A DNA stretch of 64,000 nucleotides, taken from NCBI RefSeq assembly GCF_001677475.2, contig NZ_CP015229.1. The stretch is one strand, 5' to 3'. How positions within the stretch are numbered: the first letter of the stretch is position 1; every line of letters begins with the position of its first letter. Below are positions 32,980 through 38,500 of the stretch, piece by piece. Made by a program: the position numbers and the translations under genes. The notes under the pieces are model-generated. The model was not told the DNA's origin. It did no database searches and saw only the letters and a list, made by a program, of their open reading frames with translations. The stretch is from Escherichia coli (GTDB lineage Bacteria; Pseudomonadota; Gammaproteobacteria; Enterobacterales; Enterobacteriaceae).

Positions 32980-35900
32980 GTGGCGATGATAAATTTAAGT
33001 AAGGAAGCAACGGTGGGTAAAGCATTAACCCCTATTGCTATACTTATGATGTTGTCTTTTCCTGTAGCTTCTCAAGCGGCGGGATTAGTCATAAAAAATG
33101 GAACGGTATATAACGCCAATGGTGTGCCAGTCGTTGACATCAACAAACCTAACGGTAGCGGTTTATCTCATAATATCTGGGATAACCTAAACGTTGATAA
33201 AAATGGTGTCGTTTTCAATAACAGCGCTAATGAATCCAGTACTTCACTTGCCGGAAATATTCAGGGAAACAGTAATCTGACCTCCGGGTCGGCGAAGGTG
33301 ATCCTGAATGAGGTTACTTCCAAAAATCCTTCAACCATTAATGGGATGATGGAAGTTGCAGGGGATAAAGCGGATCTGATTATTGCCAACCCGAATGGTA
33401 TTACTGTAAACGGTGGTGGTTCAATCAATACAGGTAAACTGACCTTAACCACCGGGACGCCGGATATCCAGGATGACAAGCTGGCCGGTTATTCCGTGAA
33501 CGGCGGTACCATTACGCTCGGTAAACTGGATAACGCCAGCCCGACAGAAATTCTGTCCCGTAACGTGGTGGTTAACGGCAAAGTGTCTGCCGATGAGCTG
33601 AACGTTGTTGCTGGCAATAACTATGTTAACGCCGCAGGCCAGGTGACCGGTAGCGTATCCGCCACGGGTTCCCGTAACGGTTACAGCGTAGATGTTGCCA
33701 AACTGGGCGGAATGTATGCGAACAAAATCAGTCTGGTTAGCACCGAGAAAGGTGTAGGGGTTCGCAACCTCGGCGTTATTGCTGGGGGTGTTAATGGTGT
33801 CAGCATCGATTCCAAAGGTAACCTGTTAAATAGCAATGCCCAGATTCAGTCTGCAAGCACGATCAACCTGACGACAAATGGTACTCTGGATAACACCACC
33901 GGTACGGTGACATCTGTAGGCACTATCTCGCTCAATACCAACAAGAATACTATCGTGAATACTCGTGCGGGTAACATCTCTACGATGGGCGATATCTACG
34001 TTAACAGCGGTACGATTGACAATACCAACGGCAAGCTTGCGGCAGCAGGTATGCTGGCGGTCGATACCAATAACGCCACGCTGATTAACTCTGGTAAAGG
34101 GAGTTCTGTCGGGATTGAAGCGGGTATCGTGGCGCTGAAAACCGGGACGCTCAACAACAGCAATGGTCAGATTCGAGGCGGTTATGTGGGGCTTGAATCA
34201 GGCGCGTTGAATAACAACAACGGTGATATTCAGACCACTGGCGACATCGCCATTATCAGTAACGGTAATGTGGATAACAACAAAGGTCTGATCCGTTCGT
34301 CCACCGGGCATATCGTTATTGGTGCGGCAGGTAGCGTAAATAATGGTTCAACCAAAACCGCCGATACCGGCAGTTCTGACTCTCTGGGCATTATTGCAGA
34401 TACCGGCGTAGAAATTGGTGCGAACAACATCAATAACAACGGCGGACAGATTGCGTCTAATGGCAACGTCTCCCTGTCAAGTTACAGCACGGTCGACGAT
34501 TATGCGGGCAAAATTCTGTCCAACAGCAAAGTGATTATCAAGGGAAGCTCACTGCGTAACGATACCGGGGGGATCAGCGGTAAGCAGGGTATTGAAGTCG
34601 CCGTTGGCGGCAGCCTGACCAATAACATTGGCGTGATCAGCTCTGAAGAGGGTGATATCTCCCTGTTAGCCAACTCAGTGGACAACCACGGCGGCTTCAT
34701 GATGGGGCAGAACATCACGATGGAGTCGATGTCTGGCGTTAATAACAACACCGCGCTGATCGTGGCCAGCAAAAAACTGAAGATAAACGCGTTCGGTAAT
34801 ATTGAAAACCGCGATGGCAATAACTTCGGTAATGCTTATGGTCTGTACTTCGGCATGCCTCAGCAAACGGGTGGAATGGTCGGCAAGGAAGGCATCGAGC
34901 TTTCCGGGCAGAACATCTATAACAACAACAGTCGTTTCATCGCTGAGGATGGTCCTCTGACTCTGCAGGCGCAGAACACGTTCGACAACACGCGTGCTCT
35001 GGTCACCAGCGGGTCGGATGCCTCTATTCAGGTTGGCGGAACGTATTACAACAACTACGCTACCACCTGGAGTGCGGGCAACCTGGATATCGACGCGACC
35101 ACGCTGCAAAACAGCAGCAGCGGTACGATGATCGATAACAATGCGACCGGGTTCATAGCATCTGATAAAAATCTGTCACTGGAAGTGGTGAATAGCCTTA
35201 CCAACTACGGCTGGATCAGCGGTAAAGGCGATGTTGATGTCACGGTGAATAACGGCAACCTGTACAACCGCAATACTATTGCGGCTGAAAAGGGGCTGGA
35301 TATTGCCGCGTTGAACGGTATTGAAAACTGGAAGGATATTTCTGCTGGCGGCGACCTGACGATGAACACCAATCGCCATGTGACCAACAACTCCAACAGC
35401 AATATGGTGGGGCAGAATATCGTTATTAACGCGGTTAACGATATCAACAACCGTGGCAACATTGTCAGTGATTTTGACCTGAACGTGACAACCAAAGGCA
35501 ACCTGTATAACTATCTCTATATGGTGGGTTATGGGGATGTCGCATTAACGGCAAATAGCGTGGCGAACAATAACGCGACCATCGAAGCGACAGGCGATCT
35601 GATTATCGATTCGAAGGGCAACGTGGGCAATTACCACGGTAAGCTGCATGCGTTGAACGGCGTGTTGTCTGTAAAAGGCAGCAATCTGAACAACGACTAC
35701 GGTGAAATTCGTGGTTATGACGACGTCACGCTGGCACTGACGGGCAACTACGACAGCTTTAAGGGCTCGCTGACCTCTGAAACGGGCGACGTGACTTTGA
35801 CGGCGAACATCATAGACAACGCCTATGGTCTGATTGCCGGTGAGAATGTTTCTGTCGATGCTAGATCGACGATTTACAACAACACTGCGCTGATCGCGGC

Positions 35901-36880: not shown

Positions 36881-38500
36881 ATGCAATTACGATTTAATTT
36901 TGGTTTGCTGCTCATTCTTTGTTGTTTTCAGATCGCAGCGAAAGACAGTCTTGATAATTTGATTAAGCAGCAAAAAAATGCAGATGAAAGCACGTTACGC
37001 GCGCATAAATTAGAAAAAAAAGATGTTTACTCAAATGCACAACGTAATGCGTTTACTCTGGGTGATCTGCCGCAGGAAAAAAATTGCTTTATCATTAATC
37101 GGGTTGAACTGGAAGATAACTTTCTGGGTGAACAGTTGATTTCTGAAGTGCAAAAAGCGATTGCCGGACGCTGTGTCGGTAGTGCTGGTGTGCAAAAAAT
37201 TGCTGCTGCCTTGCAGGATTATTATATTAATGCCGGATATATCACAACGCGAATTAGTATTCCTTCGCAGGATATTTCTAAAGGCAAACTACGTTTCCTG
37301 GTTAATGCCGGGAAGATAGAAAAAACGATTGTCGAAGGTAATGACATCAGTGAATGGATGTTACCTTTTCAGCGTAACGATATTCTCAATATTCGCGATA
37401 TTGAACAGGGGCTGGAAAATCTTCAGCGAGTACCTGATGTTGATGTGAAAATTAATATTGAACCAGGAATACGAGATGGTTACAGCAACGTTCATATTGA
37501 TACACACCGTGGGAAAAACTGGAGCGTTCGGGCAAGTTACAACAATTGGGGCGATAAAGAAACGGGCCGTTACCAGACAACCGCGGTGGGTTATCTGTTT
37601 AATCCAGCGAAAATGGGGGATCTGTTTTATCTCGCCGTTACGCGTAGTACTACCGGACAGTATGAAAACGTCAGTAGTTATTATTCCATTCCGGTGGGGT
37701 ACTGGGAGTACGGTTTTTTCTATAGCAAAAGTAAATCGCAGCAGGTGATTCCGCTTTCGTACATCTCGCTGGATTATGTTGGCACCAGCGAATACTTGAG
37801 CGCAAAGGCGACGCGTACCGTTTATCGCGATAAAACAAAAAAATTCGCCGGTAGTGCAGAACTCATTCGTCGAAAGTCGAATTACACGCTTAATGGTGAG
37901 GAGCTGACATTACAGGCGCGGGATATGGGAAATATCAAACTGGGGCTAAATTATAAGCAACAGTTACCCGGCGCGTTCTGGGATTCAACCCTCTCGTGGC
38001 AACGCTTTTTAACCTGGTTCGGTGGTGAAAAAACGCCAGATATGCAATATGGCGACGTTAGCCCGGTAAGCAATATCTTTAATTTTGAGGGTAACTATAC
38101 CCGACAAATAAAGAATGGATATTACAATACTGCTTTTTTTGCCCAGTACGCACCGCGTGAACTGACTTTGCAAGATCAAATTACAGTTGGCGATCGTTGG
38201 AGTATTCGCGGGTTTGAAAATAGCGTAGGTTTGTCAGGGAATGATGGTTTTTATATAAAAAATACGCTGGCATTTCCTTTGCCTGGAATGAAAGCTAACT
38301 ATTATGCCGGTCTTGATTTTGGGCAAGTGTATCAGGACGCTTCTTATGGCGATGAATCACTGATGGGCGCGGCAGTTGGTATTGATGGAAACATTAAAAG
38401 TCTTGAGTATAACTTTTCCGTTTCTACCCCATTAAAGTATCCGACGACATTAGATATTGATCGGGTGAATGTAAATTTCAATTTTTCGTACCAAATGTAA
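36881..38500 (+). CDS. Two-partner secretion outer-membrane transporter (TpsB; ShlB/FhaC family)
   Basis: 539-aa ORF with signal peptide and POTRA-like N-terminal region; C-terminus NFNFSYQM ends in an aromatic-rich beta-barrel-type strand. Confidence 0.85.
   Translation: MQLRFNFGLLLILCCFQIAAKDSLDNLIKQQKNADESTLRAHKLEKKDVYSNAQRNAFTLGDLPQEKNCFIINRVELEDNFLGEQLISEVQKAIAGRCVGSAGVQKIAAALQDYYINAGYITTRISIPSQDISKGKLRFLVNAGKIEKTIVEGNDISEWMLPFQRNDILNIRDIEQGLENLQRVPDVDVKINIEPGIRDGYSNVHIDTHRGKNWSVRASYNNWGDKETGRYQTTAVGYLFNPAKMGDLFYLAVTRSTTGQYENVSSYYSIPVGYWEYGFFYSKSKSQQVIPLSYISLDYVGTSEYLSAKATRTVYRDKTKKFAGSAELIRRKSNYTLNGEELTLQARDMGNIKLGLNYKQQLPGAFWDSTLSWQRFLTWFGGEKTPDMQYGDVSPVSNIFNFEGNYTRQIKNGYYNTAFFAQYAPRELTLQDQITVGDRWSIRGFENSVGLSGNDGFYIKNTLAFPLPGMKANYYAGLDFGQVYQDASYGDESLMGAAVGIDGNIKSLEYNFSVSTPLKYPTTLDIDRVNVNFNFSYQM

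What the first reader, a model, noticed from the sequence alone, without database searches (positions are those of the whole stretch)
32980..38500. Two-partner secretion system in tpsA-tpsB order
The 1270-aa exoprotein has a clear TPS domain (ANPNGI) and beta-helix repeats, followed by its ShlB/FhaC-type transporter. Most characterised TPS loci have the transporter first. The exoprotein is short for an FHA or CdiA-type protein and has no VENN or pretoxin motif, so it looks like an adhesin or haemolysin rather than a contact-dependent inhibition toxin.
Basis: partly seen in the sequence, partly recalled or inferred. Interest (0 to 1): 0.6.

Follow-up and report, generated by a model that had tools for sequence, protein, structure and literature searches.

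The report
Known OtpA/OtpB secretion pair, lipid-cluster-linked
This is the already characterised OtpA/OtpB two-partner secretion system of E. coli (O-island 47), a non-toxic beta-helical secreted protein and its outer-membrane transporter; what seems not to have been noted is that the pair always heads the same 17-gene lipid-synthesis and export cluster in many bacterial genera.

Summary
ORFs 32980-36792 (1270 aa) and 36881-38500 (539 aa) are a TpsA with a strong TPS domain and a TpsB with two POTRA domains and a ShlB barrel, in A-then-B order. There is no VENN motif, toxin domain or immunity gene.

It is not new. The pair is an allele of OtpA/OtpB (ECs1282-1283, O-island 47) of E. coli O157:H7, at 98.1% and 97.0% amino-acid identity and fully syntenic. 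That system was shown to be a real TPS in 2007-2009, and its function is still listed as unknown. "Not a CDI toxin" is supported. "Adhesin or haemolysin" is not established.

New points from this work:
- OtpA is an uninterrupted beta-helix whose 378-aa C-terminal module is tandemly duplicated.
- A terminator-like hairpin between tpsA and tpsB is conserved across genera.
- tpsA-tpsB is the head of a tightly packed 17-gene cluster: acpS, KR, DH, ACP, GCV_T-like, three ketosynthases, a MacB/Lol-like ABC exporter, a LolA-like protein, a probable outer-membrane protein, FabD and YcdU.
- This cluster is conserved in about 25 species (Enterobacterales, Aeromonas, Acinetobacter, a Neisseria-labelled genome) while the upstream flanks differ.

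This points to a function coupled to an envelope lipid, not to the neighbouring fimbriae. That coupling is inferred, not shown.

The parts
31590..32979 (+). Long AT-rich non-coding region upstream of otpA (1390 nt, 34% GC). Presumed promoter and regulatory region, shared divergently with the Loc6 fimbrial operon.
   Evidence: No ORF of 60 aa or more spans it except a 66-aa TTG ORF. No Rfam family reaches the gathering threshold. There is no DNA conservation with other genera. The promoter role is inferred.
32980..36792 (+). otpA (tpsA): 1270-aa secreted beta-helical exoprotein, an allele of OtpA/ECs1282.
   Evidence: ORF. It is 98.1% aa identical to the EDL933 protein, with 24 substitutions and no indels. 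RefSeq names it 'filamentous hemagglutinin N-terminal domain-containing protein'.
32980..33078 (+). Sec-type signal peptide, about aa 1-33 (…FPVASQA|AG). No extended signal-peptide region was detected.
   Evidence: Hydrophobic segment at aa 12-30. An AxA site is read directly from the sequence. AF2 pLDDT is below 50 for residues 1-34. The cleavage site is inferred; no predictor was run.
33103..33825 (+). TPS secretion domain (aa 42-282), with NPS at aa 116 and ANPNGI at aa 136-141 (nt 33385-33402).
   Evidence: Pfam PF05860, E=2e-41. TIGR01901 scores 77 bits. PDB sequence hits: Fha30 1rwr 8e-36 and HpmA 3fy3 about 6e-33. Foldseek TM-score on the target is 0.84-0.91 to HpmA265.
34546..35640 (+). 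C-terminal module, copy 1 (aa 523-887). It contains the family-conserved FG..G.Y.G...Q.GG segment (YFGMPQQTGG, aa 623-632), which is the only helical insertion in the beta-helix.
   Evidence: Self-alignment gives 55.8% identity over 369 columns, score 1031 against 88±11 for shuffles. Nucleotide identity between copies is 67%.
35680..36786 (+). C-terminal module, copy 2 (aa 901-1269), a tandem duplicate with a period of 378 aa. The conserved segment has diverged here (LFGITDNVGG, aa 1001-1010). It carries the family's conserved C-terminus.
   Evidence: The natural 892-aa E. coli allele P0008 is exactly one period shorter, with a hybrid junction. Most orthologues are 850-930 aa long.
36802..36862 (+). 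Intercistronic terminator-like hairpin (AAAGACAGCAG…CTGCTGTCTTT, followed by ATTTAGTTT). Probably an attenuator or 3'-end stabiliser of the otpA message.
   Evidence: RNA fold of -30.7 kcal/mol, z = -2.6. A hairpin is present in all 19 orthologous spacers tested, with median z of -5.4 and a conserved AAAGCAGC/GCUGCUUU core. The function is inferred.
36881..38500 (+). otpB (tpsB): 539-aa Omp85-family transporter, an allele of OtpB/ECs1283. POTRA_2 is at nt 37088-37312, POTRA_3 at 37352-37465, the ShlB barrel from 37478, and L6 IRGF at aa 442.
   Evidence: Pfam domains. It is 97.0% aa identical to EDL933. PDB sequence hits: CdiB 6wil 3.4e-43 and FhaC 4qky 3.5e-20. Motif position.
38516..41710 (+). 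acpS (38516-38884), FabG-like ketoreductase (38898-39659), FabZ/ApeI-like dehydratase (39663-40211), ACP (40233-40514) and a GCV_T-like aminomethyltransferase-family protein (40550-41710).
   Evidence: RefSeq annotation of the orthologues. NCBIfam hits. Pfam families on record. Gaps between genes are 3-35 nt.
41784..46520 (+). KS-KS didomain protein (41784-44342, 852 aa), a third ketosynthase (44347-45570) and a 317-aa protein with a thiolase/FabH-like fold (45567-46520).
   Evidence: NCBIfam hits and Pfam families. The 317-aa protein gave an AF2 model of pLDDT 64.6 with Foldseek hits to MxnB, OleA, DpsC and ChlB3 at E of 1e-8 to 1e-6.
46531..51371 (+). Export set: LolD-like ABC ATPase (46531-47238), 218-aa protein with a signal peptide (47222-47878), MacB_PCD/FtsX permease (47879-49189), LolA-like TP_0789-family protein (49198-49986) and a 462-aa protein with a signal peptide, possibly an outer-membrane protein (49983-51371).
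   Evidence: NCBIfam hits and Pfam families. Signal peptides and the C-terminus are read from the sequences. There are no PDB sequence matches for the 218-aa and 462-aa proteins. The outer-membrane location is inferred.
51382..53309 (+). FabD-like malonyl-CoA:ACP transacylase (51382-52326; its 3' end is the K-12 pseudogene ymdE) and the membrane protein YcdU (52323-53309). This is the end of the cluster.
   Evidence: NCBIfam TIGR00128, 2e-52. K-12 aligns to window 51983-53521 at 98.7%.

Best explanation
Window 32980-38500 encodes an allele of the known OtpA/OtpB two-partner (type Vb) secretion system of E. coli O-island 47.

Secretion mechanism: OtpA is exported by Sec through a roughly 33-aa signal peptide. 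Its N-terminal TPS domain is recognised in the periplasm by the two POTRA domains of OtpB. OtpA is threaded through the OtpB barrel and folds outside the cell into one uninterrupted right-handed beta-helix. This is established for the O157:H7 orthologue in the literature and is inferred here from 97-98% identity.

The protein has no toxin, enzyme or other globular domain. Its 378-aa C-terminal module is tandemly duplicated, which lengthens the rod.

Operon structure: the pair is not a stand-alone locus. It forms the first two genes of a tightly packed 17-gene, 20.3-kb cluster (32980-53309). A conserved hairpin after otpA probably makes the otpA message more abundant than the downstream genes (inferred).

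The other 15 genes encode a dedicated type II FAS/PKS-like pathway: AcpS, ACP, FabD, KR, DH, three KS domains plus a FabH-like protein, and a GCV_T-like protein, with no recognisable enoyl reductase. They also encode a MacB/LolCDE-like ABC exporter, a LolA-like carrier and a probable outer-membrane protein.

My best reading is that OtpA is a non-toxic surface or extracellular beta-helical fibre that acts in the same process as an envelope lipid made and exported by the co-transcribed genes.

Probabilities:
- It is OtpAB and works as a TPS: about 0.95.
- It is non-toxic and non-CDI: about 0.95.
- It is functionally coupled to the lipid cluster in some way: about 0.6.
- The precise mode of coupling is unknown.
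For: Identity:
- Megablast finds the 5.5-kb pair in 382 of 5426 complete E. coli genomes, including EDL933 at 97.3%.
- OtpA and OtpB are 98.1% and 97.0% aa identical to the EDL933 proteins, with no indels.
- The window is colinear with EDL933 O-island 47 over 40.5 kb at 97.4%.
- The literature names otpAB as ECs1282-1283, next to Loc6, and calls it a genuine TPS system. Secretion still worked when OtpB was induced after OtpA, and the function is listed as unknown.

Anatomy:
- TPS, POTRA and ShlB domains.
- PDB sequence matches only to the TPS domain and to CdiB and FhaC.
- AF2 model with pLDDT 93.1, all-beta from residue 35 to 892 with one short helix.
- Foldseek matches to HpmA265 and Fha30 for the TPS domain, and a weak whole-length match to EtpA.
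- Tandem duplication.
- No VENN motif and no extra Pfam domain.

Operon:
- All 15 gaps from otpB to ycdU lie between -17 and +73 nt.
- No + strand terminator pattern lies between otpB and acpS.
- The hairpin is conserved in 19 of 19 spacers.

Linkage:
- Seven of seven loci seeded with OtpA homologues of 45-66% identity carry the same downstream genes, with unrelated upstream flanks. They come from Enterobacter, Aeromonas, Winslowiella, a genome labelled Neisseria sp., Acinetobacter and Klebsiella.
- Twenty of twenty species loci seeded instead with the GCV_T-like gene have an OtpB homologue directly before acpS. Eighteen of the twenty also have an OtpA homologue.
- Within E. coli, the pair is present in 379 genomes and the lipid genes in 380.
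Against: - No experiment links OtpA to the downstream genes. Synteny could reflect co-transfer of one island rather than a shared function.
- Two Kosakonia species keep OtpB and the lipid genes without an adjacent OtpA.
- More distant relatives (29-35% identity in the C-terminal module) are associated with the cluster in only one of three cases, and that one lacks TpsB and looks degraded.
- No HlyC/CdiC-type acyltransferase was found. The only unassigned cytoplasmic protein has a thiolase-like fold in a medium-confidence model.
- The AF2 model is of an 892-aa allele, not of the window's 1270-aa protein.
- I could not read the primary OtpAB papers. Their content is taken from a review, from a preprint and from memory.
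Confidence: 0.8

Rival explanations
1. The locus is a self-contained TPS adhesin or ShlA/HpmA-type haemolysin, with a function that has nothing to do with the neighbouring genes.
For: - The TPS domain is close to both FHA and HpmA.
- The protein is a long beta-helix like the EtpA and FHA adhesins.
- Weak Fil_haemagg repeats are present.
- The surrounding region is rich in adhesion and biofilm loci: pga, Loc6 fimbriae and csg.
Against: - The published analysis puts OtpAB in neither subtype, and its function is listed as unknown.
- Nothing beyond the TPS domain matched a solved haemolysin structure; HpmA is solved only as its TPS fragment, so the haemolysin C-terminal region could not be compared.
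- The invariant downstream cluster across genera argues against independence.
- The haemolysin reading has no specific support.
Confidence: 0.25
2. OtpA is an accessory factor of the upstream Loc6 chaperone-usher fimbriae. This is the postulate attributed to Choi et al..
For: In E. coli the gene sits divergently next to Loc6. Kosakonia sacchari has the same Loc6-type operon upstream, with an usher 68% identical. Winslowiella has an unrelated ECP-type fimbrial operon upstream.
Against: In most loci the upstream flank is something else:
- wza-wzb-wzc in Enterobacter.
- A CDI-type TPS in Aeromonas.
- Housekeeping genes in Klebsiella, Acinetobacter and the Neisseria-labelled genome.

Only 1 of the 27 non-E. 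coli loci in my tblastn comparison has Loc6-type genes. The preprint found no spinach-root binding for Loc6 itself.
Confidence: 0.08
3. The synteny is hitch-hiking. The TPS pair and the lipid genes travel together as one mobile island and share a promoter, but they serve unrelated functions.
For: - The distribution is patchy: about 25 species in distant lineages and 7% of E. coli genomes, which fits horizontal transfer of a block.
- Within E. coli, presence and absence apply to the whole island.
- K-12 lost the block in one IS3-associated deletion.
Against: - Gene order and tight spacing persist while protein identities fall to 45-60% and flanks change completely. That is longer than unrelated genes usually stay adjacent.
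- OtpB is retained before acpS even where OtpA is missing.
Confidence: 0.25
4. It is a contact-dependent inhibition or other toxin-delivery TPS.
For: OtpB is most similar in sequence to CdiB (3.4e-43).
Against: - No VENN or pretoxin motif, no DUF637 and no C-terminal globular domain.
- The protein is 1270 aa long, whereas CdiA proteins exceed 2500 aa.
- No immunity ORF is present. The gene after otpA is otpB, followed by acpS.
- The gene order is A-B, not B-A-I.
Confidence: 0.02

Closest known systems
OtpA/OtpB (ECs1282-1283) of E. coli O157:H7, O-island 47 (Choi, Dawson and Bernstein 2007; Choi and Bernstein 2009)
   Same: Same genes. OtpA and OtpB are 98.1% and 97.0% aa identical with identical lengths, and the same neighbours run from dgcT to ycdU. 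The order is A-then-B. The system is TpsB-dependent and secretion can be temporally uncoupled.
   Different: There are only allelic differences: 24 and 16 substitutions. The window lacks the prophage that EDL933 carries beyond ycdU.
FHA/FhaC (Bordetella) and HpmA/ShlA-type haemolysins
   Same: They share the TPS domain fold and the NPNGI motif. The transporter is also of the POTRA-POTRA-barrel type.
   Different: - OtpA is much shorter than FhaB.
- No sequence match was found outside the TPS domain.
- Its published placement is outside both subtypes.
- The haemolysin operons (shlBA, ethBA, phlBA) are B-then-A.
HMW1ABC, cdiBCAI and hxuCBA: TPS operons with accessory genes
   Same: They are precedents for a TPS pair co-transcribed with genes that modify or cooperate with the TpsA: the HMW1C glycosyltransferase, the CdiC acyltransferase-family protein and the HxuC receptor.
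   Different: Here the accessory set is 15 genes encoding a whole acyl-chain synthesis and export pathway. No HMW1C-like or HlyC/CdiC-like protein was detected.
Aryl-polyene and flexirubin-type type II FAS/PKS-like clusters with LolA-like export proteins
   Same: They share a dedicated ACP, KS, KR and DH set, weak ApeI-like and FlxB-like hits, no enoyl reductase and a LolA-like protein. That aryl-polyene and flexirubin clusters use LolA-like export proteins is from my own knowledge.
   Different: No model reaches its curated cut-off. The cluster has a GCV_T-like protein, a KS-KS fusion and a MacB-type ABC exporter, and it is headed by a TPS pair. Its product is unknown.
EtpA (ETEC) secreted beta-helical adhesin
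   Same: It gives a whole-length beta-helix resemblance in the fold search (8vbb, E=3.8e-6). It is also a secreted E. coli TpsA.
   Different: Identity is 14% and TM-score about 0.3. The etpBAC order differs and the accessory gene there is a glycosyltransferase.

Membership tests
Two-partner secretion (type Vb) system | The TpsA has an N-terminal Sec signal peptide followed by a TPS domain with the NPNGI motif. | tested here: met
   PF05860, E=2e-41. TIGR01901 scores 77 bits against a cut-off of 29.1. ANPNGI is at aa 136-141. A hydrophobic N-terminus and an AxA site are present.
Two-partner secretion (type Vb) system | The TpsB is an Omp85-family protein with two POTRA domains, a ShlB-type barrel and the L6 (V/I)RG(Y/F) motif. 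| tested here: met
   POTRA_2, POTRA_3 and ShlB at 7e-70. CdiB and FhaC sequence matches. IRGF at aa 442.
Two-partner secretion (type Vb) system | Secretion of the TpsA depends on its TpsB. | not testable with these tools
   Reported for the 97-98% identical O157:H7 orthologue. Not tested for this allele.
OtpA/OtpB orthologue group | Near-identity to ECs1282/1283 and the same chromosomal position in O-island 47, between dgcT and ycdU/serX. | tested here: met
   98.1% and 97.0% aa identity. Colinear over 40.5 kb at 97.4%. Same annotated neighbours.
Contact-dependent inhibition (CdiA/CdiB/CdiI) | A VENN/pretoxin motif that marks off a polymorphic C-terminal toxin domain. | tested here: not met
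   No VENN motif. Only Fil_haemagg repeats in the last 400 aa. The model is beta-helix to the C-terminus.
Contact-dependent inhibition (CdiA/CdiB/CdiI) | An immunity gene immediately downstream of cdiA. | tested here: not met
   The 88-nt spacer holds a hairpin and no ORF. The next genes are otpB and acpS.
ShlA/HpmA-type cytolysins | Specific relatedness to the haemolysin subfamily beyond the generic TPS domain, together with haemolytic activity. | tested here: inconclusive
   The TPS domain is as close to FHA as to HpmA. Nothing matches beyond it by sequence, but only the HpmA TPS fragment is solved. Published placement is outside the haemolysin subtype. Haemolysis cannot be tested here.
FHA-type adhesins | FHA-type repeats and demonstrated adhesion. 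| tested here: inconclusive
   Fil_haemagg hits are weak; the best is 4.7e-6. The fold is a beta-helix. Published placement is outside the adhesin subtype. Adhesion was not tested.
Aryl-polyene/flexirubin-type clusters (for the downstream genes) | Matches above the curated cut-off to Ape/Flx family models, plus a starter-unit enzyme such as an ammonia lyase. | tested here: not met
   FlxB scores 184 bits against a cut-off of 340. ApeI-like hits are weak or faint. No lyase is present, and a GCV_T-like protein takes that place in the cluster.

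The most novel reading that the evidence does not exclude
OtpA-family exoproteins define a lipid-coupled class of two-partner secretion systems. In this reading the beta-helical TpsA is the dedicated protein partner of an unusual acyl or polyene lipid. That lipid is made by the co-transcribed type II FAS/PKS-like enzymes and carried outward by the MacB/LolA-like proteins. OtpA could be acylated by it, anchored by it, or serve as its surface scaffold. The 17 genes would then build one lipid-protein surface structure. The K-12 genes ymdE and ycdU would be its relics.
Probability: 0.3. Interest if true: 0.65.

Novelty: already known. Interest (0 to 1): 0.35.

Why it matters
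The flagged locus is a textbook-level known system, so it adds nothing new in itself. OtpA has, however, been listed as 'function unknown' since 2007, and the only published idea, as relayed, tied it to the neighbouring fimbriae.

The comparative result here points elsewhere. Across roughly 25 species the pair is locked to a 15-gene acyl-chain synthesis and export set, while the fimbriae are not conserved next to it.

That gives a concrete, cheap experiment. Knock out the ketosynthase or ACP genes, then examine OtpA mass and localisation, and run the reverse test on the lipid in an otpAB mutant.

If the coupling is real, it would be a new kind of accessory function for type Vb secretion. It would also explain the K-12 orphan genes ymdE and ycdU.

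Tried and rejected
- The primary OtpAB papers (DOI 10.1128/JB.01751-06, PMC1855909, PMC3107007) are not held. I relied on the review and a preprint.
- Text searches gave nothing on a link between the TPS pair and the lipid genes. The searches were 'two-partner secretion + acyl carrier protein + ketoacyl' (0 papers), 'aminomethyltransferase/ketoacyl/LolA/hemagglutinin' (1 irrelevant paper) and the locus tags.
- The 207-aa ORF upstream (30966..31589, minus strand) is not related to the EcpR_N protein at the same position in Winslowiella (E=0.89). It has no NCBIfam hit.
- No conserved DNA was found in the region upstream of tpsA between genera. No Rfam family lies near the locus.
- The consensus promoter and terminator scan was no better than shuffled sequence, and it missed the intercistronic hairpin because the hairpin's loop is long.
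- RNAalifold on the MAFFT alignment of the spacers recovered only a 6-bp invariant core with little covariation. The outer stems are misaligned. Support for the hairpin therefore rests on the individual folds.
- Profile searches of the 218-, 317- and 462-aa proteins against PDB sequences found nothing.
- The idea of an HlyC/CdiC-type acyltransferase in the cluster was not borne out. The 317-aa protein looks thiolase-like.
- blastp self-comparison failed to report the internal repeat. A local pairwise alignment was needed.

Full report
**Observation**

- The first ORF carries a Pfam TPS domain at aa 42-282 (E=2e-41). The rest of the protein gives only weak Fil_haemagg repeats.
- NCBIfam's N-terminal haemagglutinin domain model scores 77 bits against a cut-off of 29.1.
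- ANPNGI is at aa 136-141.
- The second ORF has POTRA_2, POTRA_3 and a ShlB barrel (7e-70), plus the Omp85/TpsB L6 motif IRGF at aa 442.
- There is no VENN motif and no cysteine, and no Pfam domain other than Fil_haemagg in the last 400 residues.
- No ORF lies between otpA and otpB. The next gene, acpS, starts 15 nt after the otpB stop.

**Identity**

Megablast finds the 5.5-kb pair in 382 of 5426 complete E. coli genomes at 95-99% identity. These include O157:H7 EDL933 at 97.3%, O55:H7 and O145:H28.
- Against EDL933, OtpA differs by 24 substitutions (98.1% identity) and OtpB by 16 (97.0%), with no indels.
- The window is colinear with EDL933 from pgaC to serX over 40.5 kb at 97.4%.
- The literature identifies these genes as otpAB (ECs1282-1283), next to the Loc6 fimbrial cluster. 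It describes them as a genuine TPS system that clusters with neither the haemolysin nor the adhesin subtype.
- The TPS review lists OtpA's function as unknown. It cites OtpAB for detectable periplasmic intermediates and for secretion that still works when OtpB is induced after OtpA.
- O-island 47 is a 31.7-kb island running from z1528 to z1556. It also holds the regulator GrvA.

The primary papers were not available to me.

**Anatomy of OtpA**

- The N-terminus has a hydrophobic core at aa 12-30 and a probable ASQA|AG cleavage site.
- Only the TPS domain matches solved structures by sequence: Fha30 at 8e-36 and HpmA265 at about 2e-33 to 6e-33. It is therefore equally close to the adhesin and the haemolysin prototypes.
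- The C-terminal half is a tandem duplication. Residues 523-887 align with 901-1269 at 55.8% identity with a period of 378 aa. The alignment score is 1031 against 88±11 for shuffles, and nucleotide identity between the copies is 67%.
- Most homologues in other genera are 850-930 aa long, which corresponds to a single module. The E. coli, Enterobacter and Aeromonas proteins are 1270-1290 aa.
- A rare 892-aa E. coli allele is exactly one period shorter, with a hybrid junction.
- An AlphaFold2 model of that 892-aa allele, built from 61 family sequences, has pLDDT 93.1. It is all-beta from residue 35 to the end, with one short helical insertion at 613-624.
- That insertion coincides with the family-conserved FG..G.Y.G...Q.GG segment. 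The window protein keeps it in copy 1 (YFGMPQQTGG, aa 623-632), and it has diverged in copy 2.
- Foldseek matches the N-terminus to HpmA265 and Fha30, and matches the whole rod only weakly to EtpA.

There is no toxin, enzyme or other globular domain.

**OtpB**

By sequence OtpB is closest to CdiB (6wil, 3.4e-43), then to FhaC (3.5e-20).

**Context in the window**

- K-12 aligns to window 10993-20240 and to 51983-53521. In between it carries IS3D.
- So the K-12 pseudogene ymdE is the 3' end of the FabD-like gene at 51382-52326, and ycdU is the last gene of the cluster. A mastitis-genomics paper independently noted a 945-bp full-length ymdE in other phylogroups.
- From otpB to ycdU, every intergenic gap lies between -17 and +73 nt.
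- The 88-nt otpA-otpB spacer folds into a long hairpin (36802-36862, -30.7 kcal/mol, z -2.6) followed by ATTTAGTTT.

**Comparative genomics**

Seven loci were retrieved through OtpA homologues of 45-66% identity. They come from Enterobacter mori, Aeromonas veronii, Winslowiella toletana (two contigs), a genome labelled Neisseria sp., Acinetobacter sp. and Klebsiella aerogenes.
- All seven show tpsA-tpsB-acpS-KR-DH-ACP-GCV_T-KSKS-KS-hyp-ABC in the same order and spacing.
- Their upstream flanks are unrelated: wza-wzb-wzc, a CDI locus, ECP-type fimbriae or housekeeping genes.

A reciprocal scan of 100,044 species genomes was seeded with the GCV_T-like protein instead of the TPS genes. It returned 20 species loci.
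- All 20 have an OtpB homologue directly before acpS.
- 18 of the 20 also have an OtpA homologue.
- All loci that are long enough carry the full export set and FabD.
- Exceptions: Kosakonia pseudosacchari and K. quasisacchari keep an intact tpsB but have no adjacent tpsA. Tenebrionibacter has two tandem tpsA genes. Mixta mediterraneensis has an altered tpsA 3' end.

Other comparative points:
- The TPS proteins are the fastest-evolving members of the cluster, at 45-67% identity against 72-86% for KS-KS.
- The intercistronic hairpin is present in all 19 spacers examined. The median z is -5.4 and the core is AAAGCAGC/GCUGCUUU. One species has a different sequence that still forms a hairpin.
- Within E. 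coli, the pair is present in 379 genomes and the lipid genes in 380.
- The OtpA C-terminal module is a small family: 75 representatives at E ≤ 1e-3 among 1.84 billion proteins, and many of those are only loosely similar giant beta-helix proteins.
- Three more distant relatives (29-35% identity in the module) give a mixed picture. One precedes a degraded copy of the same cluster that lacks tpsB. One is an orphan between ligB and yicC. One sits in a tandem tpsA pair on a short contig.
- Loc6-type fimbriae are upstream only in E. coli and Kosakonia sacchari. GrvA/FidL-like regulators are upstream in three other species.

**The downstream genes**

They encode the following:
- AcpS, a FabG-like ketoreductase and a FabZ/ApeI-like dehydratase.
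- An ACP and a GCV_T-family protein.
- A KS-KS fusion and a third KS.
- A LolD-like ATPase, a MacB_PCD/FtsX permease and a TP_0789/LolA-like protein.
- A FabD-like transacylase.

None reaches an equivalog cut-off for a named pathway. The unassigned proteins are:
- A 317-aa protein whose medium-confidence model (pLDDT 64.6) has a thiolase/FabH-like fold.
- A 218-aa protein and a 462-aa protein, both with signal peptides. The 462-aa protein ends in ...GFKYYL. Neither has a PDB sequence match.
- The polytopic membrane protein YcdU.

No enoyl reductase, thioesterase or HlyC-type acyltransferase was recognised.

**Mechanism**

Shown for the orthologue in the literature, and inferred here from near-identity:
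- Sec export of OtpA.
- Recognition of the TPS domain by the POTRA domains of OtpB.
- OtpB-dependent translocation and extracellular folding.

Shown here:
- The passenger is a plain beta-helix with a duplicated distal module.
- The locus is the head of a conserved, tightly packed 17-gene cluster with a conserved post-tpsA hairpin.

Inferred:
- The hairpin raises the otpA message relative to the downstream genes.
- OtpA acts in the same process as a lipid made and exported by the downstream genes.

How the two are coupled is open. Possibilities are acylation, anchoring, scaffolding or mere co-regulation.

**Rivals**

- A stand-alone adhesin or haemolysin is possible for the adhesin part. It has no specific support, and the conserved linkage argues against independence.
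- The Loc6-accessory idea is contradicted by the variable upstream flanks.
- Hitch-hiking of two unrelated modules on one island remains a serious alternative.
- A CDI role is excluded on four counts: motif, domain, immunity gene and size.

**Novelty**

The flagged object is already known. I found no paper in the searchable library that links a TPS pair to an ACP and ketosynthase cluster. However, the adjacency within O157:H7 has been visible since the genome was annotated.

The cross-genus conservation, the module duplication and the conserved hairpin are modest additions. Together they turn 'function unknown' into a testable hypothesis.

Noticed in passing
window 36802-36862 (plus tail to about 36871): A long terminator-like hairpin sits in the otpA-otpB spacer. 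An equivalent hairpin is present in all 19 orthologous spacers from other genera (median z -5.4, core AAAGCAGC/GCUGCUUU). Rahnella bruchi has a different sequence that still forms a hairpin.
   Followed up: yes
window 51983-53521, compared with K-12 (L032 10504-12041): The K-12 pseudogene ymdE and the orphan gene ycdU are the 3' remnant of this 17-gene cluster. K-12 lacks window 20241-51982 and has IS3D at the junction. A mastitis-genomics paper treats ymdE-ycdU as niche-associated core genes without this context.
   Followed up: yes
window 34546-36786; P0008: The C-terminal 378-aa module of OtpA is tandemly duplicated at 55.8% aa identity. A rare 892-aa E. coli allele is exactly one period shorter with a hybrid junction, which suggests recombination between the copies.
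   Followed up: yes
L015 and L016 (Kosakonia pseudosacchari, K. quasisacchari); L033: Two species keep an intact tpsB and the whole lipid cluster but have no adjacent tpsA. Conversely, an orphan OtpA-family tpsA sits between ligB and yicC on a metagenome contig. This hints that TpsA and TpsB can be encoded apart, or that TpsB has another role.
   Followed up: partly
L019 199-6237 (Tenebrionibacter intestinalis); L013 1499-5596 (Mixta mediterraneensis): Tenebrionibacter has two tandem OtpA-family genes (868 and 854 aa) before one tpsB. Mixta mediterraneensis has a 1366-aa tpsA with an unrelated C-terminal end and a gap of about 0.7 kb before tpsB, possibly caused by an insertion.
   Followed up: no
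window 22039-23347 (minus strand); L015-L017: The FidL-like and GrvA (ToxR-family) regulator pair of O-island 47 has 25-28% identical counterparts just upstream of the cluster in two Kosakonia species and a Buttiauxella. They could be the cluster's own regulators.
   Followed up: partly
window 45567-46520: A 317-aa protein annotated as hypothetical, with no Pfam or NCBIfam hit, is predicted to have a thiolase/FabH-like fold. The model is of medium confidence. The best fold matches are MxnB, OleA, DpsC and ChlB3.
   Followed up: yes
L034 (GCA_000314855.2) 10001-22526: This is a distant copy of the cluster (GCV_T 42%, KS-KS 58%). The tpsA is followed directly by acpS with no tpsB. The KR and KS-KS genes are each split in two, so the cluster looks degraded.
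   Followed up: partly
window 53503-53590 (minus strand) and beyond: tRNA-Ser (GGA), serX, follows ycdU and is then followed by ghrA, as in K-12. EDL933 instead has an integrase and prophage-like genes after ycdU.
   Followed up: partly
window 11851-12044 (minus strand) and 59191-59282 (minus strand): Two Rfam hits lie above the gathering score: Ysr251 (193 bits), near the phoH/pgaD end, and ES056 sRNA (120 bits), in the csg region.
   Followed up: no
window 18001-24000: A markedly low-GC stretch (34-38%) covers dgcT, the EAL-domain gene, and the FidL-like and GrvA genes. It forms the left edge of the island.
   Followed up: no
L004 1-8049 (Aeromonas veronii): A CDI-type TPS, with a TpsA of more than 2900 aa carrying DUF637 and its own TpsB, lies divergently next to the OtpAB-type cluster. 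One locus therefore holds two different TPS systems.
   Followed up: no
E. coli genome searches: One of the roughly 382-390 matches to the otpAB and lipid-gene block is on a record classed as a plasmid.
   Followed up: no
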